A DNA stretch of 61,743 bases, filler included, from Nemertoderma westbladi (lineage: Eukaryota > Animalia > Xenacoelomorpha), in assembly GCA_032718475.1 (NCBI GenBank). It is 3 parts of 3 records of this genome, joined end to end, with 100 filler letters (N's around TTAATTAATTAA, not from the genome) between each part and the next. Parts side by side here need not be neighbours in the genome. Positions count along the whole stretch, not along the records: positions 27,264 to 55,134 come from JAUCBJ010003799.1; 2 more parts are not named here. One strand, given 5' to 3'. The notes below the pieces were generated by a model, which had not been told where the DNA came from, made no database searches, and saw nothing but the letters and a program-made list of their open reading frames with translations. Below, in pieces: positions 11,291 through 52,751 of the stretch. Made by a program: the position numbers and the translations under genes. Positions within the stretch are counted from its first letter, which is position 1. The number at the start of each line of letters is the position of its first letter.

Positions 11291-13020
11291 ATTAAGTTGA
11301 TTACGGTATAAAACAGCATTTTGTCTGTAGCCCTTTATTGGAAATTAATTATTTTATAGTATAAGATTTAAATAATTATACTTAAAAATTATACAGCTTT
11401 AATTCTCATATCCCATTCCATTATAGTTTTTAATTAGTTCAAGTGTTTGCTTTAAGAAATGTGTTTTTATTTGATCTAAAAGTTATTAAAATACCCCGTC
11501 AGCCGTCACTCTTTACTCCCCGCTCCCTTATTCTAAGGCATGCTTGCTATTGCGTAGCCTAACCAGTCCAACCACCAGCTAACTAACCACTACTCATTAG
11601 GCAGTCTTGTAATGAGCCAGACTAATAAGAGAGCTTCCTTGGTTATTGCTGTCTTGTGTTTACCTTACAAAATTATTGGCTGAGTATTTAATTGTGATTC
11701 TTTAGAATAATTCGCTAAATAATTTCGTTGAGGTGTTGACATGATAAATTTATGTTTCAATATCAATACTATCGGCATAAGGTAAGTTTTATATTTCTTA
11801 CAAATTGGGTCGCCTCCACACCTAAAATATGTAATATATTACTTTATGAGTTTAACATGTTACCAATAGCATGAGTTTATCTTTGATCTATGATTTCTTA
11901 GTTGGTTAAATAAATTAAATAATATGCGATCTTTAATTATTTTTGCTAGAAATTTGTGCTTTTTGTGTATTTGTGAATCGCTTCCAGTTGTATTTTGAAT
12001 TATATTAAAAATAAATATAACATATTACTTTTAAATCACAAACGGGGGGGCTTTATTCTCATCTCTTTGTGATTTACTGGTGTTTGGTTAAATTTCTTAA
12101 ATACCGAGTTTGTGATACAGTAGAATCGATGTCTTCCGATGTCATCCGATGTTTTTATTAGGCTAACTGAGAATGTATTATGTGGAAATAATTAGTGTTT
12201 TTTATTTTATTTATTTAATACAGTTAGCCCCCTTCGCAGAATAAAAAGCTCTTTGGGGCCGTTTCTCAGGTTGCGTTTAGGGATAGCCTTTCACACATCC
12301 CACTAATTGTGATTTGTATCTTAAGCGACTGTGTATTACAGATGGGCGGGAGGCAGTTTTTTGGTTGATGCAAGTCATTCTTGTTGGTTTGCATCTTCCA
12401 ATCTTTATCTGTTTATTGGAGTCTGTGTAAGACAGGTTTGTTTAAAGCCATCTTGATGGCGTTCTAGTATAGTCAAATGATAGTTGTATGTGTAAAGTAG
12501 TGTAAAGTACATAATACTAACAACATAATATTGCACTGGGCAACACCTGTCCTCTTGTACACAACATGATAGGCTGACCTAGTTAGTGTTACCGAAACAC
12601 GTAAAGTGACAGACCAAACCCTTTGATTAGCTTTCTATTATTATGAACGAAATTATGTTAAAATATTAAATTATAATTTCATTATCACTTCAACTCCAGT
12701 AATTAATTGAAAAGCTCAGACAGTCCCAGGTAATTCGACCCTGTCGAATCGACAGGGTGATTTCTGAGATTATTAACAACTCTCGGTGCTAGGTTGACTC
12801 AATGCGTGTGCAGTAAATATCATGATGAATGTTTTCTTATTTTATTAGTCAGTTCACATGTTTAAATAACCCCAACAAAACAACACAATGCACTGCACAG
12901 CATATTGATATTAAAGCTAGTAAATGAGGAGCCTGGTGTCCTTTATTGCTTGCAGGAAAAACTCTATTATAGTCTCGCCTTTCCAGCCAAAGCAGATCTA
13001 TTTATTAACTATTGCATTAC

Positions 13021-14726
13021 TCATTCAACGTCTATAGGTCCATCAATAAATTCCCTACCCGATGATGGCTGCACATTTCTAGAACGTTTTAGATTCACAT
13101 TTCCAACTTTATTAGTGAAAACCAGGCGAAATTTTGGTATGAAAACTGTAAGAATTGATAGCGACGTGCAAACAAATATACTCGAGCCGGATATGGCGAA
13201 TCGTATTGTTGGTAGATTATCCTGAAAAAGATTGATTGGGACTCCGATACCGGCTATTATAGCCAAAGTGTATATGCATATACCTATTTCTTTGCTGTCG
13301 TTTAATTCATCTATTTTTATTTTTCGTGACTCGAGAGCAAGAAAAGTCCCATATATGAGAAAGATCCCCTTGTATATATAAATTGCTCCGAGCCAATATA
13401 GAAAGTTATTGGAGAGACATCTTCCTCGTTGATGGACTGTAATAGTGTCCATCTCTACATCGCTAATGGGATCTCCATGTTGATCTATTTTCCACTCCGG
13501 GGCGTCAGTAATCATCCAAGGTACCAATATAGCCATGTCAACAAGTAACAACACAGTTACCATTGCAACTAGCTTTGCATCTTTAATGATGATTCGTTTC
13601 CCTGCGGCGTTGTGCATGATGGCATTTATCCGCCACGTTTTAGCAAATAATGCACCATAGCCGATAGTGAATCCAAGAGCTAGTGTGAATGTCTGAGCAC
13701 AACAGATCCCAGATTGCGTATCAACGGACCTATTTGTAATTCCCATTAGCACTATAGTAATATAACATAAAATTGCACCAATGGCAACAAAACCATTCAT
13801 TGTCGGACTAGAGAGTTTGATGACCTTTTTATTTCTGTAAACGAAGTTAAGAATGAATAATGATAAGCTGGTAGCTATACCAAGATTGTATATACAAGGA
13901 ATATCCATAGTGGTACTCCAAATTGTTGGATTTTCTCTAACATGGAGTCTAAAGGAATTTTACTTCCTGTGAATTGTATGTTTCGTTCTAAAACTAAACC
14001 TCTAAATTCATCATATGCACCCAGGAACACTTTTTGTAGACCATCATTTGTCTTAAGGAGCTGTTCTATACGAGTAATTCCTCCACGCCTCTGACCTTGG
14101 GACAACCAGCATCGACCACTCATTCCTTCAAAGTCTACCATATCCATAGCAACAAGAAATACATCTCTGATGACTTGGTTGTCATAGTTGAAATCCAAGA
14201 TAGATTTACCTTCATTTTTTAATATATTTTCTGATATATTTAGAGCGAACGCAATAGCCCAGACTGAATCGTAACCAAATGATGCAAATTCTTTGTCTAT
14301 AGTGTGTGTGGGATCATCTAAACTTGTTAAGAAATCTTTCAGTGTATCAGAAGCATCTTTTCCTGATATAGTTATTGTTGGGTATGGGGAAAGTGTTGAT
14401 GCACTAAGAGCGAGTGAGTTATTCACCATAATATACATCATTGCGATAGTGCAGTTTGTCTCATCGACATTATAAGTGTACCACAGGTTTGACCACCATC
14501 CAGGGACGAAATATACATACTTTGCTCCGTACATTCCCATGTAGTAGGCCATGCACATCACCTGTCTCGCAACCTGTTGGTACATCTGTAGAATAATAAT
14601 TCTAGCATCAGATTTTTTTACAAGCTGCAGGGCGAGAGTGGGATCCAGTTTGAAGTTGCCTCTGATAACCTCCACATCATCATCTTCAAGGCTTTCAACG
14701 AGTTGGTCATCCGCGAGAGTAAATAT
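13021..14726 (-). CDS. GABA-B-like class C GPCR, large terminal exon (VFT lobe 2 + 7TM), interrupted by a frameshift near 13880-13890
   Basis: Acceptor ttttctccccAG at 14727; IFTLADDQLVESLE.., SDARIIIL, GYDSVWAIAFAL, FEGMSG; 7TM motifs KLSSP..N, GALFAKTWR, YKG..L, LNDSKEIG, VFIPK; stop at 13021. Confidence 0.88.
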
Positions 14727-15539
14727 CTGGGGAGAAAATAAAATAATTTCTGTATTGCATATTGTTATGGTGTATGTTTGCTTATGGCCTACAAGGCTTG
14801 ATGTTTTGAGGTGGGATATTGTAGGTACAATATTAAACGTTTATTTTTAATTTTTAGTTTTTTAATCAATGAGACTAATTTGGTAAAAAATAAATAATAA
14901 CACTAGGCCTATATTTTACACTCCCATAATCTTCTAGTTATAGACTGCAGAGAGGTTCATTCTTCGGGCAAATAAAAATCGAGATAAGTAATATTATAAA
15001 TTCTGAGATATATGTATATACTTACACTTAGTAAGCAATGAGCATGGTATAATTAACTTTAGTATGGGTAAGTATGATTTGATTAGAATTTAATTGCGTC
15101 AATAGTTAAATAATAATTTTTTTATTATTGGTATTATTAATTCGCACGAGACGACAAATATATGAATAAAATTAATAAAACTTATACAGCAATAAGATTA
15201 AAAAGGAACTAGTCCTAGGCATGTACACGTTAATTAAAATTTATGTCAATAAGCATATAATTATAACGAAAATACTAATAAAATATCAATTAATGACACA
15301 CAAGGGAAAATGATAGGCCACAGGTAAATTTTTTAACCGATTGATGTTGAAGTAGTTCAGAATGAGGTCTTGCTTAGATTTAAATGTTCAGGACGAACTA
15401 TAACAGTCAATATGAAGTCTCATGAAATGTCCTGCGTAATTAATGTCAAAACGTTATAGAAGAAACTTTTTGCTATAATCGTAAGATAGCAGATGGATCT
15501 TCGAAAATTAGTGAGCCATTCACTTCAAGGAATGTTTGA

Positions 15540-27863: not shown

Positions 27864-28405
27864 ATGACGACTCGACTACATAATATATTATCTGCTTTGT
27901 GTTTATTAATATACGCCATTGTTACCGGTGGGCGATGCCTGTAAATGCGAAGCAACAACCAAAAACTCTTTTACAAACCTAACGAAACCAGAACAGTGCG
28001 AGAATGGGTTGAATTCGACGAAGTTAAACAATAAATACAACTCGAATACGGTTGATATGGTGTGGATTCCTAAGAGTGATGTTATGTTAGGGACTTTAGC
28101 AAGCAGTTTACCGAGGGGAGTTGTAGCTACGTATAGGGGGGACGGAGAACAGCCAGTTCGTAAAGCGACCGTTAGCGGATTCTATCTCGATAAATTCGAA
28201 GTTTCTAATAGGAAATTCCGTGAATTCGTAGACGCCAAAGAGTTCGTTACAGAGGCTGAAAGGTTCGGAGATTCGTTTGTTATGGAGAATTATTTATCTG
28301 ATGAGGTGAAGGCCAGTATTACTGAGGCTGTGGCGGCGGCGCCGTGGTGGCTGCCGGTGGCTGGAGCCACGTGGTTGCACCCTGAAGGCTCGGGCAGTGA
28401 CATCG
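27864..28405 (+). CDS. SUMF1: Formylglycine-generating enzyme exon 1 (apparent 1-nt frameshift at ~27930)
   Basis: ATG 27864 gives signal peptide MTTRLHNILSALCLLIYAIVTG; shifted frame GDACKC..., DGEQPVR, FYLDKFEVSN, VTEAERFGDSFV, AAAPWWLPV..WLHPEG; donor GTTAGT at 28406 (phase 1). Confidence 0.88.
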
Positions 28406-28975
28406 GTTAGTGGGTTTACTAATAGCAGGTCTAAGGGTCGTGGTCGACGTACCGGTAACAATAATAGTTGACCGCCAAGTATATATGAACGTAAAATGAT
28501 TAAATGAGACGGGGGGGGGGGGGGGGGGTGGGTGGGAGGGGCTGACACTGACGTAATTTACGACGGCGAATCGCAATTAAGGGAAAGGAGCAGGTTACAG
28601 TGGCACGTTACTCTAACTCAAACAATAAACAAATGTCATCATAACACTACATGCACTAGCATATCACACGGATTTCATTTTTATGAGTAATCAGTTGTTA
28701 TTTGCGCCGAATATCCCCTGGCTGCCTGGATATTTATAATTTTTTTTTCTGCAATTCTACTGTAGGCCGAAATTGGGACAAATTAAAATGTGTTGTGAAT
28801 TTGGGTTAGGAGTGTGAAAATTTCACGTAATTTTGTGAGAAACCCTTATTACTACTACTAGCTGTAACTGGTGGATAATCCCCTCTCAGCCTTTGTTATA
28901 TAAAACGACGTCTGGAATTAACAAAAGTTCAATTTGTCAAAAGTTTCAATATTATGAGCTAGGGAATTTTTTTTT

Positions 28976-29207
28976 ACTGCACTGCACTACTACTACTAGG
29001 TCGAGCGAACTCGGACAGCACTGCACTGCACTACTACTACTAGGTCGAGCGAACTCGGACAGCACTGCACTGCACTACTACTACTAGGTCGAGCGAACTC
29101 GGACAGCACTGCACTGCACTACTACTACTAGGTCGAGCGAACTCGGACAGCACTGCACTGCACTACTACTACTAGGTCGAGCGAACTCGGACAGCACTGC
29201 ACTGCAC
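28976..29207. repeat. 44-bp tandem repeat (5 copies) of an RTE-like LINE 3' end plus CACTG spacer
   Basis: ctactactactaggtcgagcgaactcggacag is identical to the 3' end/(TAG)n tail of the LINEs at 36958 and 41552/41622. Confidence 0.85.
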
Positions 29208-29386
29208 AAATGTTTTTATATGAAACAAATATTGTGAAATATATCAATAAACATTGAAACTTTCTCTCACTAATATTAATTTTTCTATAGTTGTTGGTAT
29301 CTAAACTAGTAAGAGAAAGTCTTTCCCTCAACTGGTTTTTAGAAATCCTCATCACCCAACACTTCAATACAACCAGCCAGATAATA

Positions 29387-32185
29387 TTACAGAACGATAA
29401 ATTACCTGCATTCGAGTGATCCCGCATCTTAGATTACAGAACTATAAATTACCTGCATTCGAGTGATCCCGCATCTTAGATTACAGAACTATAAATTACC
29501 TGCATTCGAGTGATCCCGCATCTTAGATTACAGAACTATAAATTACCTGCATTCGAGTGATCCCGCATCTTAGATTACAGAACGATAAATTACCTGCATT
29601 CGAGTGATCCCGCATCTTAGATTACAGAACTATAAATTACCTGCATTCGAGTGATCCCGCATCTTAGATTACAGAACTATAAATTACCTGCATTCGAGTG
29701 ATCCCGCATCTTAGATTACAGAACTATAAATTACCTGCATTCGAGTGATCCCGCATCTTAGATTACAGAACGATAAATTACCTGCATTCGAGTGATCCCG
29801 CATCTTAGATTACAGAACTATAAATTACCTGCATTCGAGTGATCCCGCATCTTAGATTACAGAACTATAAATTACCTGCATTCGAGTGATCCCGCATCTT
29901 AGATTACAGAACTATAAATTACCTGCATTCGAGTGATCCCGCATCTTAGATTACAGAACTATAAATTACCTGCATTCGAGTGATCCCGCATCTTAGATTA
30001 CAGAACTATAAATTACCTGCATTCGAGTGATCCCGCATCTTAGATTACAGAACTATAAATTACCTGCATTCGAGTGATCCCGCATCTTAGATTACAGAAC
30101 TATAAATTACCTGCATTCGAGTGATCCCGCATCTTAGATTACAGAACTATAAATTACCTGCATTCGAGTGATCCCGCATCTTAGATTACAGAACTATAAA
30201 TTACCTGCATTCGAGTGATCCCGCATCTTAGATTACAGAACTATAAATTACCTGCATTCGAGTGATCCCGCATCTTAGATTACAGAACGATAAATTACCT
30301 GCATTCGAGTGATCCCGCATCTTAGATTACAGAACGATAAATTACCTGCATTCGAGTGATCCCGCATCTTAGATTACAGAACGATAAATTACCTGCATTC
30401 GAGTGATCCCGCATCTTAGATTACAGAACTATAAATTACCTGCATTCGAGTGATCCCGCATCTTAGATTACAGAACTATAAATTACCTGCATTCGAGTGA
30501 TCCCGCATCTTAGATTACAGAACGATAAATTACCTGCATTCGAGTGATCCCGCATCTTAGATTACAGAACGATAAATTACCTGCATTCGAGTGATCCCGC
30601 ATCTTAGATTACAGAACGATAAATTACCTGCATTCGAGTGATCCCGCATCTTAGATTACAGAACGATAAATTACCTGCATTCGAGTGATCCCGCATCTTA
30701 GATTACAGAACGATAAATTACCTGCATTCGAGTGATCCCGCATCTTAGATTACAGAACGATAAATTACCTGCATTCGAGTGATCCCGCATCTTAGATTAC
30801 AGAACGATAAATTACCTGCATTCGAGTGATCCCGCATCTTAGATTACAGAACTATAAATTACCTGCATTCGAGTGATCCCGCATCTTAGATTACAGAACT
30901 ATAAATTACCTGCATTCGAGTGATCCCGCATCTTAGATTACAGAACTATAAATTACCTGCATTCGAGTGATCCCGCATCTTAGATTACAGAACGATAAAT
31001 TACCTGCATTCGAGTGATCCCGCATCTTAGATTACAGAACTATAAATTACCTGCATTCGAGTGATCCCGCATCTTAGATTACAGAACTATAAATTACCTG
31101 CATTCGAGTGATCCCGCATCTTAGATTACAGAACTATAAATTACCTGCATTCGAGTGATCCCGCATCTTAGATTACAGAACTATAAATTACCTGCATTCG
31201 AGTGATCCCGCATCTTAGATTACAGAACTATAAATTACCTGCATTCGAGTGATCCCGCATCTTAGATTACAGAACTATAAATTACCTGCATTCGAGTGAT
31301 CCCGCATCTTAGATTACAGAACGATAAATTACCTGCATTCGAGTGATCCCGCATCTTAGATTACAGAACGATAAATTACCTGCATTCGAGTGATCCCGCA
31401 TCTTAGATTACAGAACGATAAATTACCTGCATTCGAGTGATCCCGCATCTTAGATTACAGAACTATAAATTACCTGCATTCGAGTGATCCCGCATCTTAG
31501 ATTACAGAACTATAAATTACCTGCATTCGAGTGATCCCGCATCTTAGATTACAGAACTATAAATTACCTGCATTCGAGTGATCCCGCATCTTAGATTACA
31601 GAACTATAAATTACCTGCATTCGAGTGATCCCGCATCTTAGATTACAGAACTATAAATTACCTGCATTCGAGTGATCCCGCATCTTAGATTACAGAACTA
31701 TAAATTACCTGCATTCGAGTGATCCCGCATCTTAGATTACAGAACTATAAATTACCTGCATTCGAGTGATCCCGCATCTTAGATTACAGAACATAAATTA
31801 CCTGCATTCGAGTGATCCCGCATCTTAGATTACAGAACGATAAATTACCTGCATTCGAGTGATCCCGCATCTTAGATTACAGAACGATAAATTACCTGCA
31901 TTCGAGTGATCCCGCATCTTAGATTACAGAACTATAAATTACCTGCATTCGAGTGATCCCGCATCTTAGATTACAATTACCTGCATTCGAGTGATCCCGC
32001 ATCTTAGATTACAATTACCTGCATTCGAGTGATCCCGCATCTTAGATTACAGAACGATAAATTACCTGCATTCGAGTGATCCCGCATCTTAGATTACAAT
32101 TACCTGCATTCGAGTGATCCCGCATCTTAGATTACAGAACGATAAATTACCTGCATTCGAGTGATCCCGCATCTTAGATTACAAT
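29387..32185. repeat. 47-bp minisatellite (~60 copies) in SUMF1 intron 1
   Basis: Unit attacagaac(t/g)ataaattacctgcattcgagtgatcccgcatcttag. Confidence 0.95.
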
Positions 32186-33074
32186 TATCCCAAATCATTT
32201 CCTATTTATTCAATATAATTTCGTATTTATTTGCTGTTAATATTCCGATTGCGACACATCCATCTTTATATTACAGTATTAATAGTAAAATAAATTTGAC
32301 ATTAATAGCAGATTGACCTTGGGAAGTCTGTCCAATACCCGATGCAATTATTCAACAATAATGCGGTTTAGTTTCCCATTATCCTTTCCAACTCGCCTAC
32401 AAGCTGTTGTGTCTGTGTGAATACCCCCCCCCCCCCCCCCCCCCGTTTCACGTCCCTAAATCTCTTGAATTAATGCAAACAGCTCCAATGAAACGTTTTT
32501 ATTGAATTGCTATTCATATAAATATTTAATAACGTTCAAGTGGTTGTGTCCCAAGGCGAATACAATAGCCACGGTTATGAGATTCTGAGTTATTTAATTT
32601 GCGTGTTAGTTGTGTTTCCGAGGTGGCGGGAATGTTTCTTGTATTCCGGTGTCGTTCTGGGTTGACAGTTCGGGGTGGGGGGGGGGGGGGGGGGGGGGAT
32701 TGTTGGGTGTCTTTCGTAAGTAAAAAATATATATCTCTCTAATAATATATTTACTGTATGTTTGAGGATTTTCTTTCCAGGTGAACTTTATCTCAAAATT
32801 GCATTCCCCTGTTACCACTTATTATCACATAATCTTCATGTTTTCAGTTTCAGATTTCTTTTCTACGTAAACTGTTTTTAAGGGCCCTGAAAGTTTTTTA
32901 TTTTTATGGGGGAGTTTGTAAAATTGTGGCTTTTAACTCTTATATAACTCACTATGTCCCCTAATGAACCATGTCCAATGAACCTAATGCACCATGTCCT
33001 CAATGTAATTAATGAATTATATACATTATTTCCCGTATAGCACACATACTTCAGATTAATTACAACATTATTTA

Positions 33075-35834
33075 CCCGCTAATATTTCCCCCTTACACAG
33101 ATTCCCGATTAATTCCACCATTTTCCCGTTAATATCTCCCCCTTTCACAGATTCCCAAATAATTCCACCATTTTCCCGTTAATATTTCCCCCTTACACAG
33201 ATTCCCAAATAATTCCACCATTTTCCCGTTAATATTTCCCCCCTTTCACAGATTCCCAAATAATTCCACCATTTTCCCGTTAATATTTCCTCCTTACACA
33301 GATTCCCAAATAATTCCACCATTTTCCCGTTAATATTTCCCCCTTACACAGATTCCCAAATAATTCCACCATTTTCCCGTTAATATTTCCCCCCTTTCAC
33401 AGATTCCCAAATAATTCCACCATTTTCCCGTTAATATTTCCCCCTTGCACAGATTCCCAAATAATTCCACCATTTTCCCGTTAATATTTCCCCCCTTTCA
33501 CAGATTCCCAAATAATTCCACCATTTTCCCGTTAATATTTCCTCCTTACACAGATTCCCAAATAATTCCACCATTTTCCCGTTAATATTTCCCCCTTTCA
33601 CAGATTCCCAAATAATTCCACCATTTTCCCGTTAATATCTCCCCCTTACACAGATTCCCAAATAATCCCACCATTTTCCCGCTAATATTTCCCCCCTTAC
33701 ACAGATTCCCGATTAATTCCACCATTTTCCCGTTAACATCTCCCCCTTTCACAGATTCCCAAATAATTCCACCATTCTCCCGTTAATATTTCCCCCCTTA
33801 CACAGATTCCCAAATAATTCCACCATTTTCCCGTTAATATTTCCCCCCTTTCACAGATTCCCAAATAATTCCACCATTTTCCCGTTAATATTTCCCCCTT
33901 ACACAGATTCCCAAATAATTCCACCATTTTCCCGTTAATATTTCCCCCCCTTTCACAGATTCCCAAATAATTCCACCATTTTCCCGTTAATATTTCCCCC
34001 CTTTCACAGATTCCCAAATAATTCCACCATTTTCCCGTTAATATTTCCCCCTTACACAGATTCCCAAATAATTCCACCATTTTCCCGTTAATATTTCCCC
34101 CCCTTTCACAGATTCCCAAATAATTCCACCATTTTCCCGTTAATATTTCCCCCTTACACAGATTCCCAAATAATTCCACCATTTTCCCGTTAATATTTCC
34201 CCCCTTTCACAGATTCCCAAATAATTCCACCATTTTCCCGTTAATATTTCCCCCCCTTTCACAGATTCCCAAATAATTCCACCATTTTCCCGTTAATATT
34301 TCCCCCTTACACAGATTCCCAAATAATTCCACCATTTTCCCGTTAATATTTCCCCCCCTTTCACAGATTCCCAAATAATTCCACCATTTTCCCGTTAATA
34401 TTTCCCCCTTACACAGATTCCCAAATAATTCCACCATTTTCCCGTTAATATTTCCCCCCTTTCACAGATTCCCAAATAATTCCACCATTTTCCCGTTAAT
34501 ATTTCCCCCCCTTTCACAGATTCCCAAATAATTCCACCATTTTCCCGTTAATATTTCCCCCCTTACACAGATTCCCAAATAATTCCATCATTTTCCCGTT
34601 AATATTTCCCCCCTTACACAGATTCCCAAATAATTCCACCATTTTCCCGTTAATATTTCCCCCCTTACACAGATTCCCAAATAATTCCACCATTTTCCCG
34701 TTAATATTTCCCCCTTACACAGATTCCCAAATAATTCCACCATTTTCCCGTTAATATTTCCCCCCTTACACAGATTCCCAAATAATTCCACCATTTTCCC
34801 GTTAATATTTCCCCCCTTACACAGATTCCCAAATAATTCCACCATTTTCCCGTTAATATTTCCCCCCTTACACAGATTCCCAAATAATTCCACCATTTTC
34901 CCGTTAATATTTCCCCCCTTACACAGATTCCCAAATAATTCCACCATTTTCCCGTTAATATTTCCCCCTTACACAGATTCCCAAATATTTCCACCATTTT
35001 CCCGTTAATATTTCCCCTCTTACACAGATTCCCAAATAATTCCACCATTTTCCCGTTAATATTTCCTCCCTTACACAGATTCCCGATTAATTCCACCATT
35101 TTCCCGTTAATATCTCCCCCTTTAACAGATTCCCGATTAATTCCACCATTTCCCCGTTAATATCTCCCCCTTTCACAGATTTCCAAATAATTCCACCATT
35201 TTCCCGTTAATATTTCCCCCCTTACACAGATTCCCAAATAATTCCACCATATTCCCGTTAATATTTCCCCCCTTACACAGATTCCCGATTAATTCCACCA
35301 TTTTCCCGTTAATATTTCCCCCCTTACACAGATTCCCAAATAATTCCACCAATTTCCCCCCTTACACAGATTCCCAAATAATTCCACCATTTTCCCGTTA
35401 ATATTTCCCCCCTTACACAGATTCCCAAATAATTCCACCATTGTCCCGTTAATATTTCCCCCCTTACACAGATTCCCAAATAATCCCACCATTTTCCCGC
35501 TAATATTTCCCCCCTTTCACAGATTCCCAAATAATCCCACCATTTTCCCGCTAATATTTCCCCCTTACACAGATTCCCAAATAATTCCACCATTTTCCCG
35601 TTAATATTTCCCCCTTACACAGATTCCCGATTAATTCCACCATTTTCCCGTTAATATCTCCCCCCTTACACAGATTCCCGATTAATTCCACCATTTTCCC
35701 GTTAATATCTCCCCCCTTTCACAGATTTCCAAATAATTCCACCATTTTCCCGTTAATATTTCCCCCCTTACACAGATTCCCAAATAATTCCACCATTTTC
35801 CCGTTAATATTTCCCCCCTTACACACAGATTCCC
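33075..35834. repeat. ~50-52-bp minisatellite (~54 copies) containing the SUMF1 exon 2 splice acceptor
   Basis: Unit cacagattcccaaataattccaccattttcccgttaatattt(c)n tt(a/t); the last unit runs straight into exon 2. Confidence 0.95.
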
Positions 35835-36009
35835 GTTCCGACCATCCCGTTCTCCACGTCAGCTGGAACGACGCCACTAGTTACTGTAAATGGAAGGGTA
35901 AACGCCTACCAACGGAGGCCGAGTGGGAGACCGGCTGTCGGGGTGGGTTGGAGGGGCGACTGTACCCCTGGGGTAACACAGACACTCCTAGAGGCAACCA
36001 CTACATGAA
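35829..36009 (+). CDS. SUMF1: Formylglycine-generating enzyme exon 2
   Basis: (D)[49 protein letters not shown]...HYM; acceptor CAG 35826-35828, donor GTGAGT 36010; phases match exons 1 and 3. Absent from the ORF track. Confidence 0.92.
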
Positions 36010-36030
36010 GTGAGTTTGGGTGGCTGCTAT

Positions 36031-36577
36031 CTTCGCTCGCGGGAAATCTTCGCCCAATAAACCGAAAGTGATTCCTGTTAGTTACCAATTGAGGGAAAGG
36101 AGCAGGTTACAGAGGCGGCTTTTTCTAACCAAAACAATAAACGATGTTGTTCTTAATTGAAGGAAAGGAGCAGGTTACAGAGACGGCTTTTTCTAACCAA
36201 AACAATAAACAATGTTACCAATTGAAGGAAAGGAGCAGGTTACAGAGACAGATTTTTTGAACCAAAATAATAAACGATATTGTTACCAATTGAGGGAAAG
36301 GAGCAGGTTACAGAGACGGCTTTTATAACCAAACCAATAAACGATCACTTTACTAATTGAGGGAAAGGCGCAGCTTACAGAGACGGCTTTTCTAACCAAA
36401 ACAATAAATGATGTTGTTACTAATTCAAAGAAAGGAGCAGGTTACAGAGACGGCTTTTTCTAACCAAAACAATAAACAATGTTGTTACCAATTGAAGGAA
36501 AGGCGCAGGTTACAGAGACGGCTTTTTCTAAGCAAAACAATAATTGTTTATTGGGTGAAGTTTTCTCGCGGGCGAAG
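36031..36577. mobile_element. MITE with ~32-bp TIR enclosing ~8 tandem copies of the shared core (~60 bp)
   Basis: cttcgctcgcgggaaatcttcgcccaataaac / gtttattgggtgaagttttctcgcgggcgaag; internal aattgagggaaaggagcaggttacagagacggc...aaccaaaacaataaac units. Confidence 0.7.
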
Positions 36578-36957
36578 TACCATCACTGAAGGAAGGTAAC
36601 TGTACCGCTTTATATTGTTTGATTGATTACCTCCTGTAGGGATTATAGGTATTCATAAGAAACAATCGATAAGTTTCTATTGTTAGTTGGGGCTGATTGA
36701 ATCGGGAAATATTAATGGACAGACGTGGTTGTTGTGTATCGCATAACTATTCGTGAGTTATTGGCAGGAGATTGTTTAGTTAATATTTCTAAATCTCATT
36801 CTTTATACAATATTGGAAGTCCCATACAGTTAATTTATTAAAACTCAGTTTCAAACAATGAAATCGTCCAGTATAATTAGAAGAGCAGCGAATTCTTACT
36901 GTAGAAAATATTGGTGTGTTTCTTTGTAGATCTGTAACTGTGTATCCAACATCTCTG

Positions 36958-37838
36958 TACTACTACTACTAGGTCGAGCGAACTCGGACAGTGGAAATGA
37001 GATCCTTCCAGGCTTCCCGATTCTCCATAGTTGTCGCAATCTCGTTTCTCCCAAGTTCAGTATCCCTTTCAAGTTGATCTATATATGTTATGGCCGGTCG
37101 TCCACGACTACGCTTTCCATGAGTTGGTTGCCAGAGAAGTAGATCTGGTATGACCTCGTCTTTACTTCGCCAGCAGTGCCCACTGAATCTTAATCTGCGT
37201 TCACGGAGGGTGGTTGATACAGGTGGTATTGTACCATAAAGCTCGGCGTTTGTCATGTGTTGTCTCCAGCTGATGTTTAGGGCTGCCCTTAGTAGTCTTG
37301 TGTAGCAACCATCAATTCGTTGTTCAAGTCATTTAGTCAGTGTCCAGGTCTCACTCCCATATAAAAATACACTTTCCACTGTGGCTCGAAAGAACTTAGT
37401 CTTCAGGTGCCTGGAGAGATCTGATTTCCAGATGGTATCCATTTTTGATAGAGCTACCCAAGCCTTTGCTTTCCTAACTTCTATGTCCTTTTTGCTACTC
37501 TCTATCCATGATCCAAGGTACTGGAAGTCATCGACCTTCCTTAGTTGATTATTATCAATGGTTGTCAAGTTCCCATCAACATTAAAGGTCATGAATTCGG
37601 TCTTTGTAGCATTTATATGCAATCCAACCTCCTTAGCAGCCCTCTCCACTTTATTTAGTAGAAACTGTGCATCTGCTAGCGTATTAGAGAGCAGGGCGAT
37701 GTCATCCGCAAAGTCGGTGTCTGTGACTGTAGTTGCCGGATATCTACTACTTCTGCGTTCTTGAAGTGTGAATCCCAGGTCTTCACCCTTTGTGGCCGTC
37801 CTCATTGCGTAATCCAGCACAATTACAAATAGATCACA
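36958..37838 (-). mobile_element. 5'-truncated RTE-like LINE with (TAG)n tail
   Basis: DTDFADDIALL, FQYLGSWI, FLYGSETW, RRLRFSGHCWR, GRP motifs; lies within a ~41-bp tandem repeat (36925-36958, 37839-37980). Confidence 0.9.
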
Positions 37839-38019
37839 ACATATCTGTATGTTGGTTTGTATATCTGTAACTGTGTATCCAACATATCTGTATGTTGGTT
37901 TGTATATCTGTAACTGTGTATCCAACATATCTGTATGTTGGTTTGTAGATCTGTAACTGTGTATCCAACATATCTGTATGTTTGTTTGTTTGTTCTTTTC
38001 CATGTTTTTTGCATGTTTA

Positions 38020-38895
38020 ATGCCCCGGAATATAGTGTCGTAATTCAGTGACACGCTAATTTGTCTTCAAATCATAATGAGATTGTATGAAATTTGAACA
38101 GAGATAGTTTCAACTCCCTCCTCCTTAGTTGGTGAACCAGAATTTTTATTTGTGCTTTCAATCTTTAGCTACAAGCGTTTGAAAAAGTGTCTCCGCCGAT
38201 ATTTCACCAGGTACACCGCAGTTATTATTCAACGTTTTATAGTGATTTGTAGATACTATTGGAAAGCTGACCGTAAGTTCCAAATATGTAAAAATATATA
38301 TCTTTGAATTTTGTTGGGAAATAGCTGTGATATGGGCATTCGAATGTTGCATATATTTGCTTCCGCTGCGGGACATTTATTATATTTAATAAAAACACCG
38401 TGTTCTAGAATATTTTGTTTATGTATGAATTTCCACGTACTAGTATTATTATTTTAATATTATAGCATTGTTGCCCAGCTACTTATGGAATATACAAACT
38501 GTTCTAGAACATTTGTGTATTTATAATATAAAATGGCCTGAATGCGAAGCAAATATGCCGACATGCAATACAACATTCGAATCATCGGCTATATATCTTG
38601 TCCATAACTCAACAATTTCCCAACCAAATTCAAATATTTTTACATATTTGGAATCCTTGCATGACCAGCTTTCCATTGGTACCAACGAACAGCTATGATG
38701 TATAAGAATAACTGCAGTACGACTGGTGCAATATCGGCGGAGACACTTGTTTTAAACGCTTCTAGCTAAAGAATGAAAACAAAATAAAAATTCTGGCTCA
38801 CCCAGTCAGTGGTCGGGAGATGAAACTCTCTATTTCAAATTTCATGCAATACCTGAATTTTGTACCTGAATTACGACACTGTCTGTATTCCAGGA
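38020..38895. repeat. Long degenerate inverted repeat (foldback/MITE) in SUMF1 intron 2
   Basis: Arms of ~350-400 bp, e.g. aagtgtctccgccgatatt / aatatcggcggagacactt and agtgtcgtaattcag / ctgaattacgacact. Confidence 0.75.
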
Positions 38896-39010
38896 TATTA
38901 CTGTATGTTTGTTTGTATTTCTGTATGTTTGTTTCTGTATATTCTTCCATACACGATGACCCTGTTATAATATTTTCCCAGTTAAACATAATATTATTTC
39001 TTATTTACAG

Positions 39011-39338
39011 TATTTGGCAGGGCGTTTTCCCCACCACCAACACGGGTGAGGACGGTTACCTAGCGACAGCTCCGGTTTCTAGTTTTCCCGCCAACGCTCT
39101 CGGCCTCCACCACATGGTAGGCAACGTGTGGGAGTGGACCGCAGACTGGTGGACCGCCTCGCACACCGCTGAGCCCGCGGTAGACCCAAAGGGACCTCGA
39201 GCCGGCACCGATAGGGTCAAGAAAGGAGGTAGTTTTATGTGCCATAAGGATTATTGTTACCGGTACCGTTGCGGTGCGAGGAGTCACGCGACTGCAGACA
39301 GCTCCAGCCACAATCTGGGTTTCCGTTGTGCTTTATAG
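39011..39338 (+). CDS. SUMF1: Formylglycine-generating enzyme exon 3 (catalytic C-terminus)
   Basis: Acceptor ttatttacAG; (N)[55 protein letters not shown]; stop at 39336-39338. Confidence 0.93.
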
Positions 39339-46033: not shown

Positions 46034-47602
46034 GAATGGGAGAATCATTTATGCTAGTTAAGCCAAGGAATACCTGTTCACCACCATGAGTGATCTTCCA
46101 CAGTAAACCCTTCCTCTCTGTTTCCTAAAGGAATACCTGTTCACCACGGGTGATCTTCCACAGTAAACCCTTCCACTCTGTTTCCTAAAGGAATGCCTGT
46201 TCACCACCATGGGTGATCTTCCACAGTAAACCCTTCCACTCTGTTTCCTAAAGGAATGCCTGTTCACCATCATGGGGGATCTTCCACAGTCCACCCTTCC
46301 ACTCTGTTTCCTTAAGGAATACCTGTTCACCACCATGGGTGATCTTCCACAGTAAACCCTTCCACTCTGTTTCCTAAAGGAATGCCTGTTCACCATCATG
46401 GGGGATCTTCCACAGTCCACCCTTCCACTCTGTTTCCTTAAGGAATACCTGTTCACCACCATGGGTGATCTTCCACAGTCCACCCTTCCACTCTGTTTCC
46501 TTAAGGAATACCTGTTCACCACCATGGGTGATCTTCCACAGTAAACCCTTCCACTCTGTTTCCTTAAGGAATACCTGTTCACCACGGGTGATCTTCCACA
46601 GTAAACCCTTCCACTCTGTTTCCTAAAGGAATGCCTGTTCACCACCATGAGTGATCTTCCTCAGTAAACCCTTCCACTCTGTTTCCTTAAGGAATGCCTG
46701 TTCACCACCATGGGTAATCTTCCTCAGTAAACCCTTCCACTCTATTTCCTAAAGGAATGCCTGTTCACCACCATGAGTGATCTTCCTCAGTAAACCCTTC
46801 CACTCTGTTTCCTAAAGGAATGCCTGTTCACCACCATGAGTGATCTTCCACAGTAAACCCTTCCACTCTATTTCCTAAAGGAATGCCTGTTCACCACCAT
46901 GAGTGATCTTCCACAGTAAACCCTTCCACTCTATTTCCTAAAGGAATGCCTGTTCACCACCATGAGTGATCTTCCTCAGTAAACCCTTCCACTCTGTTTC
47001 CTAAAGGATTGCCTGTTCACCACCATGAGTGATCTTACACAGTAAACCCTTCCACTCTATTTCCTAAAGGAATGCCTGTTCACCACCATGAGTGATCTTC
47101 CTCAGTAAACCCTTCCACTCTGTTTCCTTAAGGAATGCCTGTTCACCACCATGGGTGATCTTCCACAGTAAACCCTTCCACTCTGTTTCCTAAAGGAATG
47201 ACTGTTCACCACCATGGGTAATCTTCCACAGTAAACCCTTCCACTCTATTTCCTAAAGGAATGCCTGTTCACCACCATGAGTGATCTTCCTCAGTAAACC
47301 CTTCCACTCTGTTTCCTTAAGGAATGCCTATTCACCACCATGGGTGATCTTCCACAGTAAACCCTTCCACTCTATTTCCTAAAGGAATGCCTGTTCACTA
47401 CCATGGGTGATCTTCCACAGTAAACCATTCCACTCTGTTTCCCAAGTTGCCTTGGTTCCCATTTATCGACCACTGAAGGATGAAAGCCGGGGTTGGGCTA
47501 GGCTGCAGCATTTAAAGCACTGTGCCCAAACAGTGCTGCCCCATCTAGGGATCGAACCCGGGCTCCCTAATCGGAAGCACAGTAATCCACTAGACCAAGC
47601 TG
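46034..47602 (-). mobile_element. tRNA-derived SINE with internal tandem expansion
   Basis: Minus strand: A box tggtctagtgg, B box ggttcgatccc, ggctttcatccttcagtggtcgataaat core as in the 759-994 SINE; perfect 13-bp TSD ataccgatgtaat (46021-46033, 47603-47615). Confidence 0.85.
46065..47442. repeat. 63-bp minisatellite (~22 copies) inside the SINE
   Basis: Unit aaggaatgcctgttcaccaccatgggtgatcttccacagtaaacccttccactctgtttccta. Confidence 0.93.
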
Positions 47603-48291
47603 ATACCGATGTAATCCTAATGTATTAAATATAACTGGTAATTTATACAGCGGTTTTATAAATTATTTATTGTTTTTTTCCTGGCTGAGTATTTTGTCCA
47701 GGTGTTCGTGAATTTGGGGGGGGGGGGGGGGGGGGGTTGAGGGGTAGGTGGATGGATGCTGGGCCACTGAGGTGAAGTATATTCTGGGTCTCTCCTGTCT
47801 GAATTCTACCATTTGTCCTTATACTACTGTATAGTGATTTCATTTCGCACTTCATAGCTAATAATATAATCTGACCCTATTGGGACTCATCCAGGTACCT
47901 AGGATCCAAAGTTCCGCTTTTTTTTTAATTTCCAGAATATCCACGTTTAGCCTTCACATTTGAATGCTAGAAAGTTAGAAAACTTTTATGCGTAAATTCT
48001 GAACGATGGATCAGTGAAAGATACGTAAAACCAAGGTTGTTGCGATTAAAAAGATATTTAGTTACTACAGTAGACAGACATCTAGGCTACTATTTCTAGG
48101 CTTAATATAATACAATAACAGCTTTATAAAACAACTCTTCCTACCTGATATATCATCTGTAATATAACTCCACCATTCTGGCCAATCTGTATCTCTCCCC
48201 CCTGGATAAAGAGTACTGGTAGTGATATCTTCACCATCTGCAACAACAATATAATCAGGTCTAGAAAGTTAGTGATTTCAAATGTATTAGT

Positions 48292-50200
48292 TTATTCATG
48301 AATGTTCGCGCTTTGCGTTATTACCATACCAGTATATAAACCCTTTGCGTTATTACATCTAATTGTATCAGTTAAGTTAATAAGGCAGGTGTCTGTAGAA
48401 TATGATTTACGAAAACCGGACTGAAGTTCATAGATCAGATTTAGCCTACTAAGATGTGCCTCCAGCTGTAGAAAAACAGAACGTTCTAGAATTTTAGATA
48501 CAATACTTAAGATACTAACAGGTCTGTAATTACAGGGTTCTACTTTACTATTCTTTTTATACAGAGGAACAACCTTAGCTAATTTCAGTTCGTCTGGTAC
48601 TACATTATCTACGATAGAGTAATTAATAATAAAAGTAATAGGCACTTTAAGTACTTCAGCACCATCCTTAAGAAAACGGGCAGGTATTAGGTCTAGACCG
48701 GTACTTTTTGAGGCTGATAGGCTAAGTAGATTTTGAAAAACGAAATCCTCAGAAACGGGTTTTAAAAATAACTTTTCTGAATTTTGTAACTTTTCTAAAT
48801 AAAAATTATTTAGAGTTTCGGACCCTATACTATATTTATTACTTGATAACGGTAACTTCTTAACTAAATTAGAGGCAACATTAGTAAAATAATTATTAAA
48901 TAAATTACTAACTAGAGTATGATCATGAATCAGCTCACCGTTATCTTTCAGAACAATATTCGATTTAGATTTAAGGTTTTTATAACCTAAAGATTTTAGG
49001 GTAGACCATAGACTTTTAGGATTATCTTTATTCTCATTTATTTTGTTGTACAAATATTCAGATTTAGCTTTTTTTATTTCCCGTTGGACAAGGTTTCTAT
49101 ATTTGCAGTAATTATTATAATCAGCTAAAACACGGTATTTCCTAAATTTATACAAATAGTTATCTCTTTCTCTGATATTACTAAGAATACCCGAGGTCAT
49201 CCAGGGCTCAGTGCGTTGTTTAAGACTAATTTATTTAATTGGTGCTACAGTATTAAATGCCTTTAGAAATATATCTTTAAAAACAGTGTACGCAAGGTTA
49301 ATGTCACCGGTTCCCAGTCAAAATTAACTAATAAACTTAAAAAGCGTTCCTTGTTGTAATTTTTCATAGACCTAACTGTTACTGTTTTATGGTCCCCGAA
49401 AAAATATTTTTGGGTCTTTCTTGTGCAAAAAACTATAAAATGATCGCTTAGACCTATAGGTAAAACCCCAGATTGAGAAATAATATCGGTATTATTACAA
49501 AGGATGTGATCTAGTAAAGTAGAAGTTTTACTGGTAATTCTGGTAGAATCTCGAATAATTTGTTTTAAACCAAACAAATTTAAAATACTTTGGTACTGTT
49601 TACATATGGGGGATGCTTTGTGATGGTAACAGATATTAAAATCACCTAAGAAATATATTACACAGTCTGACCTAAGATTACATAAAATTGTATTTTCAAA
49701 ATTTTGCAAAAAATCCGATTGTTTAGGGGGTCGATATAAAGTACCGAAAAAAATAGGTTTAGTTTTTAGGAAGAAAAAGTTCCACCAGTAAAACTTCGTC
49801 ACAAGTCTCTAAATCTTCCCTACGATTAAAAGCTAAATCATATCGAATGTAAGTACAGACACCACCACCGTGTCTGTCCCTATCCTTACGTAAAACTACG
49901 TAATTATCAATATAAATTTCTCCATCAGAAACGCTATCATCGAGCCAAGTTTCAGAGATTGTTAAAACTGCTGGGTTGGATTTATTGATTAAAATACGAA
50001 TTTCGGAAAGTTTGGGAAGCAGAGATCTTGCATTTAAATGCAAAAAATTCAGACCTTTTTTCCTAAAAAATTTAAAAGTTTCACTCTCAGCATCACTTGG
50101 AGTTTGCAGAGACGATGTGAGGAATGAATCGTCGGTTTCTGTTTCTAAAATAGTATCATGAAAGGGAAGTTCGGTAAAAATACAGCTATTGCAGAGAAAA
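48292..50200 (-). mobile_element. CR1-like LINE ORF2 (APE endonuclease + RT N-terminus), frameshifted and 3'-truncated
   Basis: HLNARSL, ISETWL, RKDRDRHGGGV, YRPP, LGDFN, LDHI, SDH, NYRPVSIL, QSGFRKSYST. Confidence 0.92.
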
Positions 50201-51400
50201 CTTGGCACAAGATTGTTTCTGGTGGAGAATAAATTAATGATGGTTGATGCCATCAATGATGCTGACAACAGTAGGCAATCATCCCAGGCATGGAAATCGA
50301 TCAACTTGCTTACTGGGCGGAAAAGCCAACCAACCACCAAGGATAAGGCTGAATCACCAGCCGATCGCCTCAATGGTTGGAAGGCCCACTTTGAAAAGCT
50401 CCTCAATAATGACAGGGTATTGCCTGATAACTTTATAGAAGTAAAAGTGTCTGAGTCTGTACTCCCAGATATTCCCATTGGCGATATCTCCTTTGCAGAA
50501 GTGAAGGCTGCTACAAAGAGCATTAAGACCAATTGTACCAGTGGAGTAGATGGTGCTCCCCCTAAGGTCTTTAAAATACCTGAGTGTTTAAAGCTCATCT
50601 ATCCCATCATAGTAGACGTGTACAGAACAACAAGAGTCCCACAAGAAATGAAAACAAATAGGTTGGTGCCAGTTCTCAAGAAGGGCAACCTAACACTCTA
50701 TGGTTCTTTTCGGGGAATCTCATTAATCTCGATTGCTGCAAAGCTATACAATAGAATTCTATTAAATCGCATCAGGGATTCCATTGAGAGACTGCTCCGT
50801 GGAAATCGGAATGGGTTCCGTAAAGGTCGTGGGACCATGGAGCCCATTTTGGCACTTAGAAGGATAATTGAAGAGTTATCAAAAAAGAAAGACAGGCATC
50901 TGGCTGTTATCTTTGTTGACTTCTTCAAGGCCTTTGATTCAGTCTCTCGCTCACGTATGTTCAGCATACTTTCATTATATGGGATTCCTGACGAAATGAT
51001 TGCAGCAATCAGATCAGTATGCGATGGTTCGACAACATTTGTGTCTACTGTTGATGGTGACACAGAACCATTTGAAGTATTATGGGGAGTCCTCCAAGGA
51101 GAGACATTTGCGCCATTCTTGTTCATAATTGTGGTTGACTATGTTCTACGCATGTCCTTAGATCATCATAATGATGATGGGGTGATGGTAACTCCACCTA
51201 CTGGCTCCAGAAGTCGAGGAAATCCTGCCAAGTACCTAACTGATCTAGACTTTGCTGATGACTTAGGAGTACTCTCAAAATCACTAGAGGGAGCCCAACG
51301 GCTCCTCAGCTCCTTAGAATAGGCTGGTTCTAGTGTTGGTCTTTTTATTAACTCCAAAAAGACCAAAATTTTCACAGTTAACTTTGAAAGTCCTCAGAAA
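50200..51400 (+). mobile_element. RTE-like LINE RT fragment
   Basis: KKGNLT..FRGISL, NGFRKGR, FVDFFKAFDSV, GVLQG, DLDFADDL; premature stop at 51320. Confidence 0.9.
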
Positions 51401-51516: not shown

Positions 51517-51795
51517 CTACCGCCACTGCTTCGGCACCGCTCCCCGTGTTGGATGGCTTTTCGTAGTAGCTGCGTCTATTTTCTCGTCGATCTTACCATT
51601 TAATTCAGCATATAGGTCTTCCTTAATTTTCTTCACAAGGACTTCATTGTTATCCTGTAGTACGGACGTTAGTGTTTCTAAACTGATTTCAGAATCTTCC
51701 TGAGTTCCGGCGAAGCTACCGCTTCGCACGATTGCTTCCGCAAGTTTATCTTTGTTGTATTTCCTGAGTAGCTGTTCTCGTGACATTTGTTTCAT
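51517..51795 (-). other. Possible LINE ORF1 coiled-coil fragment
   Basis: 92-aa ORF with heptad-like charged segment (LVKKIKEDLYAELNGKIDEKID), oriented like the CR1-like ORF2 nearby; no diagnostic motif. Confidence 0.3.
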
Positions 51796-51864
51796 TATTC
51801 GTATATTAAGACTATCTGTTTCCGGACAATCTCCACTAACTCCAGTTTCACTGTGGGAGTGTGA

Positions 51865-51985
51865 GTGTCAGGGGCTAGTGGCTAGTGGCTGAGCTGGTTA
51901 GCGCTACTGATGATGCCTGTTAGGCCGAAAACGTACGTATAGCGCTGGTTCAACCCCCGATGACGCGCTTTCTCATTTTTTTCCA
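51865..51985 (+). ncRNA. tRNA-like Pol III cassette containing a type I hammerhead ribozyme motif (core 51900-51946)
   Basis: A box tggctgagctgg; stem I agcgcta/tagcgct; CTGATGA; stem II gcct-gtt-aggc; CGAAA(A)C; palindromic gtac loop; GTA cleavage triplet; B box ggttcaacccc; T7 run at 51976-51982. Confidence 0.72.
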
Positions 51986-52267
51986 CTTCTGAACAAACCC
52001 ATAATATTACGATGAGATACTGCTTGACATTTTATTTGTTTAACATCTTAATGTACATAAATAATCGATCCTAGACATGTATTATATTGTACAATATAAA
52101 CTCTCTTTCTCTTTCTAAATTCAATACCGTAAGATATTTTAGATATTTTAGATAAATTTGTGCGTTGTAATCTCACTAGGGGGCGACCCCGTCACGTTAT
52201 CGTGTAAATCCATTTTAATAATAATAATAATAATAATAATTACACCTTTAGTTTTTTAAGGCCTCAT

Positions 52268-52345
52268 ACGGCGCAGTGGCGAAGTTGTTAGAGCGTTGGA
52301 CTTGGTACCGAGTTCAATCCTACTTTCCAGTGAATTATTTTTGGT
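52268..52345 (+). pseudogene. Degenerate tRNA-like/SINE head
   Basis: ggcgcagtggcgaagttgttagagcg..gagttcaatcc A/B-box-like motifs. Confidence 0.4.
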
Positions 52346-52751
52346 AGTAAGATGGGTAGTTCAAGAAGGAGACAGTTCATGCTTTAGTAGACGCGGATTT
52401 CGAGCTTGTTGCGTTAGTAACAACTTGGCCCGTAACTTTTTGAATTTTATCAATAATAATTGAATTTTATTACTCATGTTGTCGAAAGTATTGGGCACAG
52501 TGTGAAGCCGTGCCGAACCTTATGGGTTGAGTGGGTGGAAAAGCAAAGTGTAACAAATAAGTGTTTTATTCCGCTAACAAGTATTGGCGACTTTAACCGA
52601 AAGTAACCGGTAGCTCATAAGTTTCCACGTAAATATACAAACAAGCCAAGGTACCATCTTTGCCAAGTTTTTAGCAACCATGATCCAGGTTTTTAGTAAA
52701 ATTTATTCAGAACTCAAATTTAACTCAAATTTGGTCTAACAGAGTTCAAAT

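What the first reader, a model, noticed from the sequence alone, without database searches (positions are those of the whole stretch)
51865..51985. Hammerhead ribozyme motif in place of the anticodon arm of a tRNA-like Pol III unit
Seen: A-box-like tggctgagctggtt, a perfect 7-bp stem I (agcgcta 51900-51906 / tagcgct 51940-51946) enclosing CTGATGA, stem II gcct/aggc, CGAAAAC, a palindromic GTAC loop and a GTA triplet, then B box ggttcaacccc, possible acceptor-like pairing gtgtca/tgacgc and a T7 run. Known: metazoan type I hammerheads with a minimal palindromic stem III cleave as dimers in Penelope-like elements, non-LTR retrozymes and schistosome Sm-alpha repeats. Inference: a self-contained, Pol III-transcribed ribozyme-SINE/retrozyme-like element; the A- and B-box segments could also pair (gagct/ggttc) to extend stem I. 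Caveats: U10.1-C11.1 mismatch and one extra A in GAAAAC, so this copy may be inactive or carry a homopolymer error.
Basis: partly seen in the sequence, partly recalled or inferred. Interest (0 to 1): 0.85.

Follow-up and report, generated by a model that had tools for sequence, protein, structure and literature searches.

The report
Hammerhead nested between tRNA promoter boxes
This is a lone, mutated piece of an abundant animal repeat in which a hammerhead self-cutting-RNA motif sits between the two boxes of a tRNA-type promoter; the family likely spreads through small RNA circles, and cutting would split its own promoter in two.

Summary
The motif is real at the stated coordinates. It has a complete type I hammerhead layout (0 in 100 window-sized shuffles) flanked by consensus A and B boxes (about 3e-6 by local shuffling).

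Public contigs show that 51853-52010 is one partial copy of a very abundant repeat. Other copies carry the canonical G10.1-C11.1 pair (86-99.8% of depth) and often canonical GAAAC, so this copy is probably crippled and the family probably is not. In a second organism label the family closes into a 341-nt circular contig. A 65-nt tandem derivative appears in three studies.

It is not a tRNA (no cloverleaf, no ARAGORN or Rfam hit). It is also not a plain SINE copy: no target duplication or tail was found, and the copy runs past both the predicted Pol III start and the T7 stop.

Best reading: a non-LTR retrozyme carrying Pol III boxes, like schistosome Sm-alpha, except that the ribozyme lies between the boxes. 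Cleavage and transcription are untested. The scan noted this layout before in this genome (e1-10614364, e1-10653974). I did not find it in eight literature searches.

The parts
51853..52010 (+). Partial solo copy (158 nt, GC 0.50) of a high-copy hammerhead repeat; about 147 of the 341 nt of the unit seen in run X5
   Evidence: Depth step and loose ends at 51853 and 52010 in X1, X3, X4; X5 joint 52010 to 51853 with 194 letters between; arithmetic
51865..51870 (+). 5' arm of the closing helix (pairs with 51961-51966); not in tRNA acceptor register
   Evidence: Pair probability 0.9-1.0 in 51865-51982, 0.65-0.83 in 51853-52010
51873..51879 (+). 7-nt tandem duplication present in this copy and absent from most others
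   Evidence: Left out in 74, 78 and 100% of depth in X1, X3, X4 and in the X5 contig
51886..51897 (+). Pol III type-2 A box; 51890-51895 can pair with the B box to extend stem I, leaving a GGUU bulge
   Evidence: Consensus match (consensus recalled); extension pair probability about 0.2
51900..51906 (+). Hammerhead stem I, 5' strand
   Evidence: 7 of 7 pairs, probability 0.64-0.82
51907..51913 (+). Hammerhead core C3-A9 (CUGAUGA)
   Evidence: no variant in these positions among the rows listed
51914..51926 (+). Stem-loop II; U10.1-C11.1 mismatch in this copy, G10.1-C11.1 in the family
51927..51939 (+). G12-A13-A14-A15.1 with one extra A, palindromic stem III (51931-51938), U16.1-A17; predicted cleavage after 51939
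   Evidence: one-A-shorter form in 50, 21, 4 and 1 contigs of X1, X3, X4, X5
51940..51946 (+). Hammerhead stem I, 3' strand
51947..51957 (+). Pol III B box, 61 nt from the A-box start and 7 nt behind the predicted cleavage site
   Evidence: Only strict B box on the + strand of the window
51961..51966 (+). 3' arm of the closing helix
51976..51982 (+). T7 run, predicted Pol III terminator; one T shorter in 10-22% of depth and in the X5 contig; its last Ts can also pair with 51857-51858

Best explanation
The stretch is a lone, partial and probably crippled copy of an abundant animal repeat that is likely a non-LTR retrozyme, whose unit carries a type I hammerhead motif between consensus Pol III A and B boxes. 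Shown: the motif, the boxes, high copy number, canonical core letters in other copies, and closed 341-nt and 65-nt contigs. Inferred: tandem units are transcribed as multimers, by read-through or another promoter because of the T-run. Neighbouring hammerheads pair through the 8-nt palindromic stem III and cut after the GUA, unit-length RNAs circularise, and a Penelope-type reverse transcriptase pastes partial or multiple turns back. The cut lies between the boxes, so a linear monomer would be promoter-dead, and only copies made across a ligated junction or from uncut RNA would restore A box-ribozyme-B box. This copy spans the cut site, with 87 nt before it and 71 nt after. Such copies are predicted to give a short Pol III RNA of about 110 nt ending at the T-run.
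For: Motif beyond chance. Summed contig depth over the element is about 3,200 and 1,900 times that of the upstream flank in X1 and X3. This is not a copy number, because overlapping contigs inflate it, but 120 and 108 contigs carry the family letter at 51960. The family restores G10.1-C11.1 and often GAAAC. Of 7 listed substitutions in the element, 51893, 51914, 51916 and 51935 keep or improve a predicted pair, and 51920 and 51960 lie in unpaired positions of the minimum-energy fold. X5 record 24 (371 nt) begins and ends in the same 30 nt, giving a 341-nt closed unit, within the 150-450 bp of animal retrozymes (PMC7229834 passages). A 65-nt closed derivative is seen in X3, X4 and X6. A short palindromic helix III that needs a dimer is the described norm for metazoan type I hammerheads (PMC4209133 passages). 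Neither end of the copy is the cut site, and no target duplication was found.
Against: No tandem neighbour in the window and no unit-length joint in the organism A runs laid; the 341-nt unit rests on one contig of depth 5.5 from another organism label. A closed contig cannot tell a tandem DNA array from a circular RNA. No Rfam hit. No fold-energy excess. No two-sided compensatory change was seen, and the X5 change at 51973 breaks a pair of the outer helix in the minimum-energy fold. The family is young and uniform, so an unchanged core is weak evidence of selection; 21 rows of the substitution table were not shown. The T6-T7 run conflicts with Pol III making multimers. No Penelope reading frame adjoins the copy.
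Confidence: 0.62

Rival explanations
1. It is a fragment of the terminal repeat (pLTR) of an autonomous Penelope-like element that carries a tRNA-derived module; the 341-nt unit would be a tandem pLTR piece.
For: Palindromic short stem III is typical of Penelope hammerheads (PMC6765202 and PMC4209133 passages). A 2026 preprint derives animal retrozymes from pLTRs (10.64898/2026.07.22.740005, part 1 of 5 read). No target duplication was found.
Against: The geometry is canonical (stem I 7 bp, stem II 4-5 bp), whereas the S. mansoni minimal type has helix II of 7-8 bp and helix I of 4-5 bp. The X5 contig closes on itself with no room for a reading frame. The flanking frames scanned are LINE-type endonuclease or reverse-transcriptase pieces, or have no usable match.
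Confidence: 0.13
2. It is a tRNA-derived SINE into which a hammerhead was inserted; Pol III makes a monomer of about 110 nt that a LINE enzyme retroposes, and the ribozyme is vestigial or regulatory.
For: Consensus boxes at a workable spacing, a helix closing the predicted transcript and a T-run right behind it. Sm-alpha is described as a SINE-like, Pol III-transcribed hammerhead element.
Against: Family similarity runs from 51853 to 52010 and, in other copies, further on both sides (loose ends), beyond the predicted start and terminator. No target duplication or A-rich or simple-repeat tail. Closed 341-nt contig in X5.
Confidence: 0.1
3. The boxes are inherited from a tRNA or SINE but no longer act as a promoter; they persist as pairing arms of the ribozyme domain, and Pol II read-through makes all the RNA.
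For: A and B segments can pair to extend stem I, and the common 51893 G-to-A variant turns a G-U of that helix into A-U. The T-run can pair in an outer helix (probability 0.57-0.72). Newt hammerhead satellites are reported as Pol II transcripts.
Against: Both boxes match consensus fully, the 51893 variant also keeps the A-box purine, and the extension is a minority fold (probability about 0.2).
Confidence: 0.1
4. It is a dead ribozyme relic spread as satellite DNA by recombination, with no RNA step today.
For: This copy has two core-adjacent defects; the 65-nt array looks like an ordinary short satellite; no fold-energy excess.
Against: The majority letters are canonical; a dispersed solo copy between unrelated repeats is easier to get by retroposition (inference).
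Confidence: 0.05

Closest known systems
Schistosoma Sm-alpha / Sj-alpha SINE-like hammerhead retroposons (seen only through passages of PMC6765202 and PMC2770079; the original paper PMC108972 is not held)
   Same: Non-coding repeat of a few hundred bases with a Pol III (tRNA-derived) promoter and a type I hammerhead; very many copies.
   Different: There the promoter is followed by the ribozyme and stays whole at the 3' end of a cut monomer. Here the ribozyme lies between the A and B boxes, the cut separates them, and a T6-T7 run follows the B box. Sequence relationship not tested.
Metazoan non-LTR retrozymes (PMC7229834, passages and Discussion read; bioRxiv 10.64898/2026.07.22.740005, part 1 of 5 and passages)
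   Same: Type I hammerhead with short palindromic stem III, unit of 150-450 bp, solo and tandem copies, no LTR features, likely Penelope-mobilised.
   Different: 'Pol III' and 'SINE' occur 0 times in the main text of PMC7229834; 'promoter' and 'tRNA' occur 0 times in the preprint. This copy is solo and partial. The 65-nt derivative is far below the reported unit range. Supplements were not read.
Penelope-like element hammerheads and the dimer-cleaving newt/axolotl satellite hammerheads (PMC4209133 and PMC7229834 passages)
   Same: Unstable palindromic helix III that needs a second copy.
   Different: Canonical rather than minimal geometry; no reading frame; tRNA-type boxes.
tRNA-derived SINEs (PMC5786205 passages, and established knowledge)
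   Same: Internal A and B boxes.
   Different: No LINE-like tail or target duplication found; the ribozyme sits inside the head. That paper notes that a ribozyme behind a SINE head would truncate it.

Membership tests
Type I hammerhead ribozyme | Core C3 U4 G5 A6 N7 G8 A9, U16.1, H17 | tested here: met
   51907-51913 and 51938-51939
Type I hammerhead ribozyme | G12 A13 A14 A15.1 without insertion | tested here: not met
   This copy has one extra A. The canonical form is present in 50, 21, 4 and 1 contigs of X1, X3, X4, X5. A different insertion, U13a, is described as likely tolerated (PMC3088659 section 8).
Type I hammerhead ribozyme | Paired 10.1-11.1 | tested here: not met
   U-C in this copy; G-C in 85.8-99.8% of depth in X1, X3, X4 and in the X5 contig
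Type I hammerhead ribozyme | Stems I and II form; stem III short and palindromic | tested here: met
   Pair probabilities 0.64-0.84; monomer stem III 0.02-0.03; intermolecular 8-bp duplex -9.8 kcal/mol
Type I hammerhead ribozyme | Rfam covariance-model match | tested here: not met
   None at gathering score or at E<=10
Type I hammerhead ribozyme | Site-specific self-cleavage | not testable with these tools
   Needs an in vitro assay
Non-LTR retrozyme | Tandem units, each with a hammerhead | tested here: inconclusive
   Solo in the window. Closed contigs of 341 nt (X5) and 65 nt (X6; same joint in X3, X4) imply tandem or circular forms in the family.
Non-LTR retrozyme | Unit of 150-450 bp, non-coding | tested here: inconclusive
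   341 nt in one contig of organism B; its other 194 letters were not shown
Non-LTR retrozyme | Linear and circular unit-length RNA in cells | not testable with these tools
   Only assembled contigs were available
Sm-alpha/Sj-alpha type | Pol III promoter boxes plus hammerhead in one repeat | tested here: met
Sm-alpha/Sj-alpha type | Promoter wholly upstream of the ribozyme | tested here: not met
   B box lies 7 nt behind the cut site; layout of the known element from the PMC6765202 figure legend
Sm-alpha/Sj-alpha type | Sequence homology to the schistosome repeats | not tested
   No such sequence was available from a tool
tRNA-derived SINE | A and B boxes at a usable spacing | tested here: met
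   61 nt start to start
tRNA-derived SINE | Target-site duplication and 3' tail | tested here: not met
   No repeat of the left junction at the right junction; longest matches 6-7 nt at unrelated places
tRNA-derived SINE | 5' end at the Pol III start | tested here: not met
   The copy starts 33 nt before the A box and other copies continue upstream
tRNA gene | Cloverleaf | tested here: not met
   ARAGORN 0; D 2 of 4, T 3 of 5, acceptor 4 of 7

The most novel reading that the evidence does not exclude
The element is a two-mode parasite in which one 70-nt sequence is both promoter and ribozyme. Dispersed copies make an abundant Pol III RNA of about 110 nt, closed by its own helix and ended at the T-run. 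Through the 8-nt palindrome this RNA acts in trans as the missing dimer partner that licenses cutting of long or circular unit RNAs. The cut between A and B box means that only circle-derived copies regain a promoter. The family has also shrunk to a 65-nt tandem hammerhead, well below the 150-450 bp reported for animal retrozymes in the papers read.
Probability: 0.18. Interest if true: 0.8.

Novelty: new variant of a known kind. Interest (0 to 1): 0.46.

Why it matters
How animal retrozymes are transcribed is not addressed in the parts of the two retrozyme papers that I read. A family with consensus Pol III boxes straddling the ribozyme, and a terminator right behind, makes that question testable with a template of about 120 nt. 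It also makes a sharp prediction: a promoter can be regenerated only by copying across the circle's junction. This particular copy is a degenerate fragment, the promoter-plus-hammerhead idea is known from schistosomes, and the scan has already noted better-preserved tandem examples in this genome.

Tried and rejected
Whole-genome search: no genome is held for this window, so copy number, arrays and target duplications could not be counted directly.

Expression: no RNA holder listed; X5 is only guessed to be RNA.

Second read-laying run: nothing laid from X7, X8 or X9 (organisms C, D, E), which is no proof of absence. Cross-species covariation could therefore not be tested, and no alignment or covariance model of copies could be built.

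Pattern scans: a family-specific pattern in metagenome contigs gave 0 hits. A generic A box-core-B box pattern gave 110 loci, 0 of 110 with a full hammerhead by my descriptor. A looser pattern in viral contigs gave 26 loci, none looking like a hammerhead when read by eye.

Rfam: only chance matches. Fold z-scores were uninformative.

Other hammerhead-like strings in the window (for example 57982, and the 63-nt array at 46065-47442) fail the descriptor. The weak BLAST match at 11554-11579 has no core.

Host naming: the receptor frame gave one hit at 36% identity to a sponge protein. The SUMF1 exon search at E<=1e-50 gave none (threshold too strict). The host is known only as an animal, by inference from gene content.

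Empty site: flank contigs of X1 and X3 stop matching at 51852, with 45 and 73 letters left over, and no joint into 51853-52450 was listed. An empty allele is suggested but not shown.

Papers PMC5785218 and PMC108972 are not held. Look-ups of earlier findings by sequence and by relatives returned nothing, so I could not confirm that this is the same family as e1-10614364.

Full report
Observation. Stem III is a perfect 8-nt palindrome (51931-51938). It barely forms within one molecule (probability 0.02-0.03) but gives an 8-bp duplex between two (-9.8 kcal/mol). My hammerhead descriptor hit only this site in the window and nothing in 100 Markov resamples on both strands. Both boxes together appeared in 0 of 200,000 shuffles of the element's own flanks. 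Against it: Rfam gave no hammerhead or tRNA match, ARAGORN none, and the fold is no more stable than shuffles. The box and core consensus motifs used are recalled, apart from the core definition in PMC3088659 (passage).

It is not a tRNA. In tRNA register the D stem keeps 2 of 4 pairs, the T stem 3 of 5 and the acceptor 4 of 7. The GTGTCA/TGACGC helix is well supported in the predicted fold but lies out of register. What survives of a tRNA is the two promoter boxes, 61 nt apart, with the ribozyme between them. The A and B segments can pair to extend stem I, but this is a minority fold (about 0.2).

It is one piece of an abundant repeat. No genome was held, so I laid public contigs: 8 of the 10 runs listed. 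In three runs labelled organism A, depth rises steeply over 51853-52010, and other copies continue with different letters on both sides. Summed depth is about 3,200 and 1,900 times the upstream flank in X1 and X3. That is not a copy number, but more than 100 contigs per run carry the family letter at 51960, so hundreds of copies or more is a reasonable inference.

G at 51914, which restores G10.1-C11.1, makes up 99.8, 99.8 and 85.8% of depth in X1, X3, X4. The one-A-shorter canonical GAAAC is listed at 38.5, 29.2 and 83.9%. These are lower bounds, because many contigs are clipped at the A-run with loose ends that read as the short form (table 7). Whether the extra A is a real minority or an assembly error cannot be told. 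PMC3088659 (section 8 read) reports natural variants with an insertion in this segment and with a mismatch at 10.1-11.1, so residual activity is not excluded. Of the 7 substitutions listed in the element, four keep or improve a predicted pair, two are in unpaired positions and one (51973, mainly X5) breaks an outer pair. None is two-sided, and 21 rows were not shown. This is weak evidence for structure.

Unit length. In X5 (organism B, RNA only by guess) a single 371-nt contig starts and ends in the same 30 nt and joins 52010 back to 51853 across 194 other letters: a closed unit of 341 nt. A closed contig means a tandem array or a circle. The window's copy covers about 147 nt of it. X6 holds a closed 95-nt contig, and the same intervening letters join 51930 back to 51898 in X3 and X4: a 65-nt unit with core, 5-bp stem I and no B box.

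Ends. No target duplication or tail was found. The copy starts 33 nt before the A box and ends 28 nt after the T-run, so it is not the copy of a Pol III monomer. It spans the predicted cut, so its template was uncut, ligated or DNA. Its neighbours are unrelated repeats and LINE fragments.

Mechanism (inferred). Described animal retrozymes are transcribed as multimers, cut by hammerheads that need a partner when helix III is short, ligated into circles, and probably copied back by Penelope enzymes (PMC7229834 passages and Discussion; PMC4209133 passages; preprint part 1 of 5). This family fits that cycle, and its layout adds two consequences. First, the cut falls 7 nt before the B box, so a linear monomer carries B before A and has no promoter; only copying across a junction restores it. 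Second, a T6-T7 run follows 19 nt behind the B box in organisms A and B. By established knowledge of Pol III this stops transcription at about 110 nt, so the boxes cannot simply drive multimers. Either Pol III reads through, or multimers come from elsewhere and the short RNA is a by-product or a trans partner. None of this was tested.

Comparison. It works like Sm-alpha/Sj-alpha and like non-LTR retrozymes. It is not filed as Sm-alpha, where the promoter precedes the ribozyme (PMC6765202 passages; PMC2770079 passages), and not as a SINE. Membership in the retrozymes is likely but rests on indirect evidence for tandem units. Eight full-text searches (listings and abstract starts seen) returned no paper describing a hammerhead between A and B boxes. 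PMC8557442, PMC5680766, PMC5786205 and PMC10886601 were seen as passages. Subscription papers, the original schistosome papers and all supplements were not seen and could hold such a case.

Earlier notes of this scan report the same layout in tandem arrays in this genome (e1-10614364, e1-10653974), promoter-then-hammerhead families (e1-10596620, e1-10615300, e1-10611281), and Penelope repeats with tRNA-like parts in other genomes (e1-10346720, e1-10336567), which prompted the first rival. These are unchecked AI notes, and I could not test them.

Verdict. A real feature and a new variant of a known kind. The family is more interesting than this damaged copy. Interest 0.46.

Noticed in passing
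runs X6, X3, X4 laid on window 51898-51930: A 65-nt tandem or circular derivative. X6 has one 95-nt contig (65+30, depth 152.6). The same intervening letters (first 30 shown for X6) join 51930 back to 51898 over 32 letters in X3 and X4, so three studies show it. It keeps GAAAC, a GUGC loop, GUA and a 5-bp stem I, plus the start of the A box, and has no B box. Three differing letters in the X6 match were not shown, so an intact core is not proven.
   Followed up: partly
window 52254-52400: A second many-copy repeat with an A-box-like start and a degenerate B box, probably a decayed tRNA-derived SINE; no Rfam hit.
   Followed up: partly
window 47470-47620, minus strand: Another A/B box pair (47597 and 47558) at ordinary tRNA spacing next to the 63-nt array, probably a tRNA-derived SINE head without a hammerhead.
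   Followed up: partly
window 48292-51400: Nested LINE pieces: an endonuclease plus reverse-transcriptase element on the minus strand, overlapped by a plus-strand reverse-transcriptase fragment at 50162-51322.
   Followed up: partly
window 51517-51795, minus strand: A 92-aa frame pointing away from the element, with no usable Pfam or Atlas match; contigs of X1 and X3 diverge from the window at 51852.
   Followed up: partly
window 27910-39338 (+) and 13021-14840 (-): Exons of a SUMF1-like gene, and a family 3 GPCR in long open frames.
   Followed up: no
run X4 laid on window 51880-51959: A variant with four letters inserted behind 51905 at depth 1108 in one contig, absent from the X1 and X3 rows; possibly another subfamily.
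   Followed up: no
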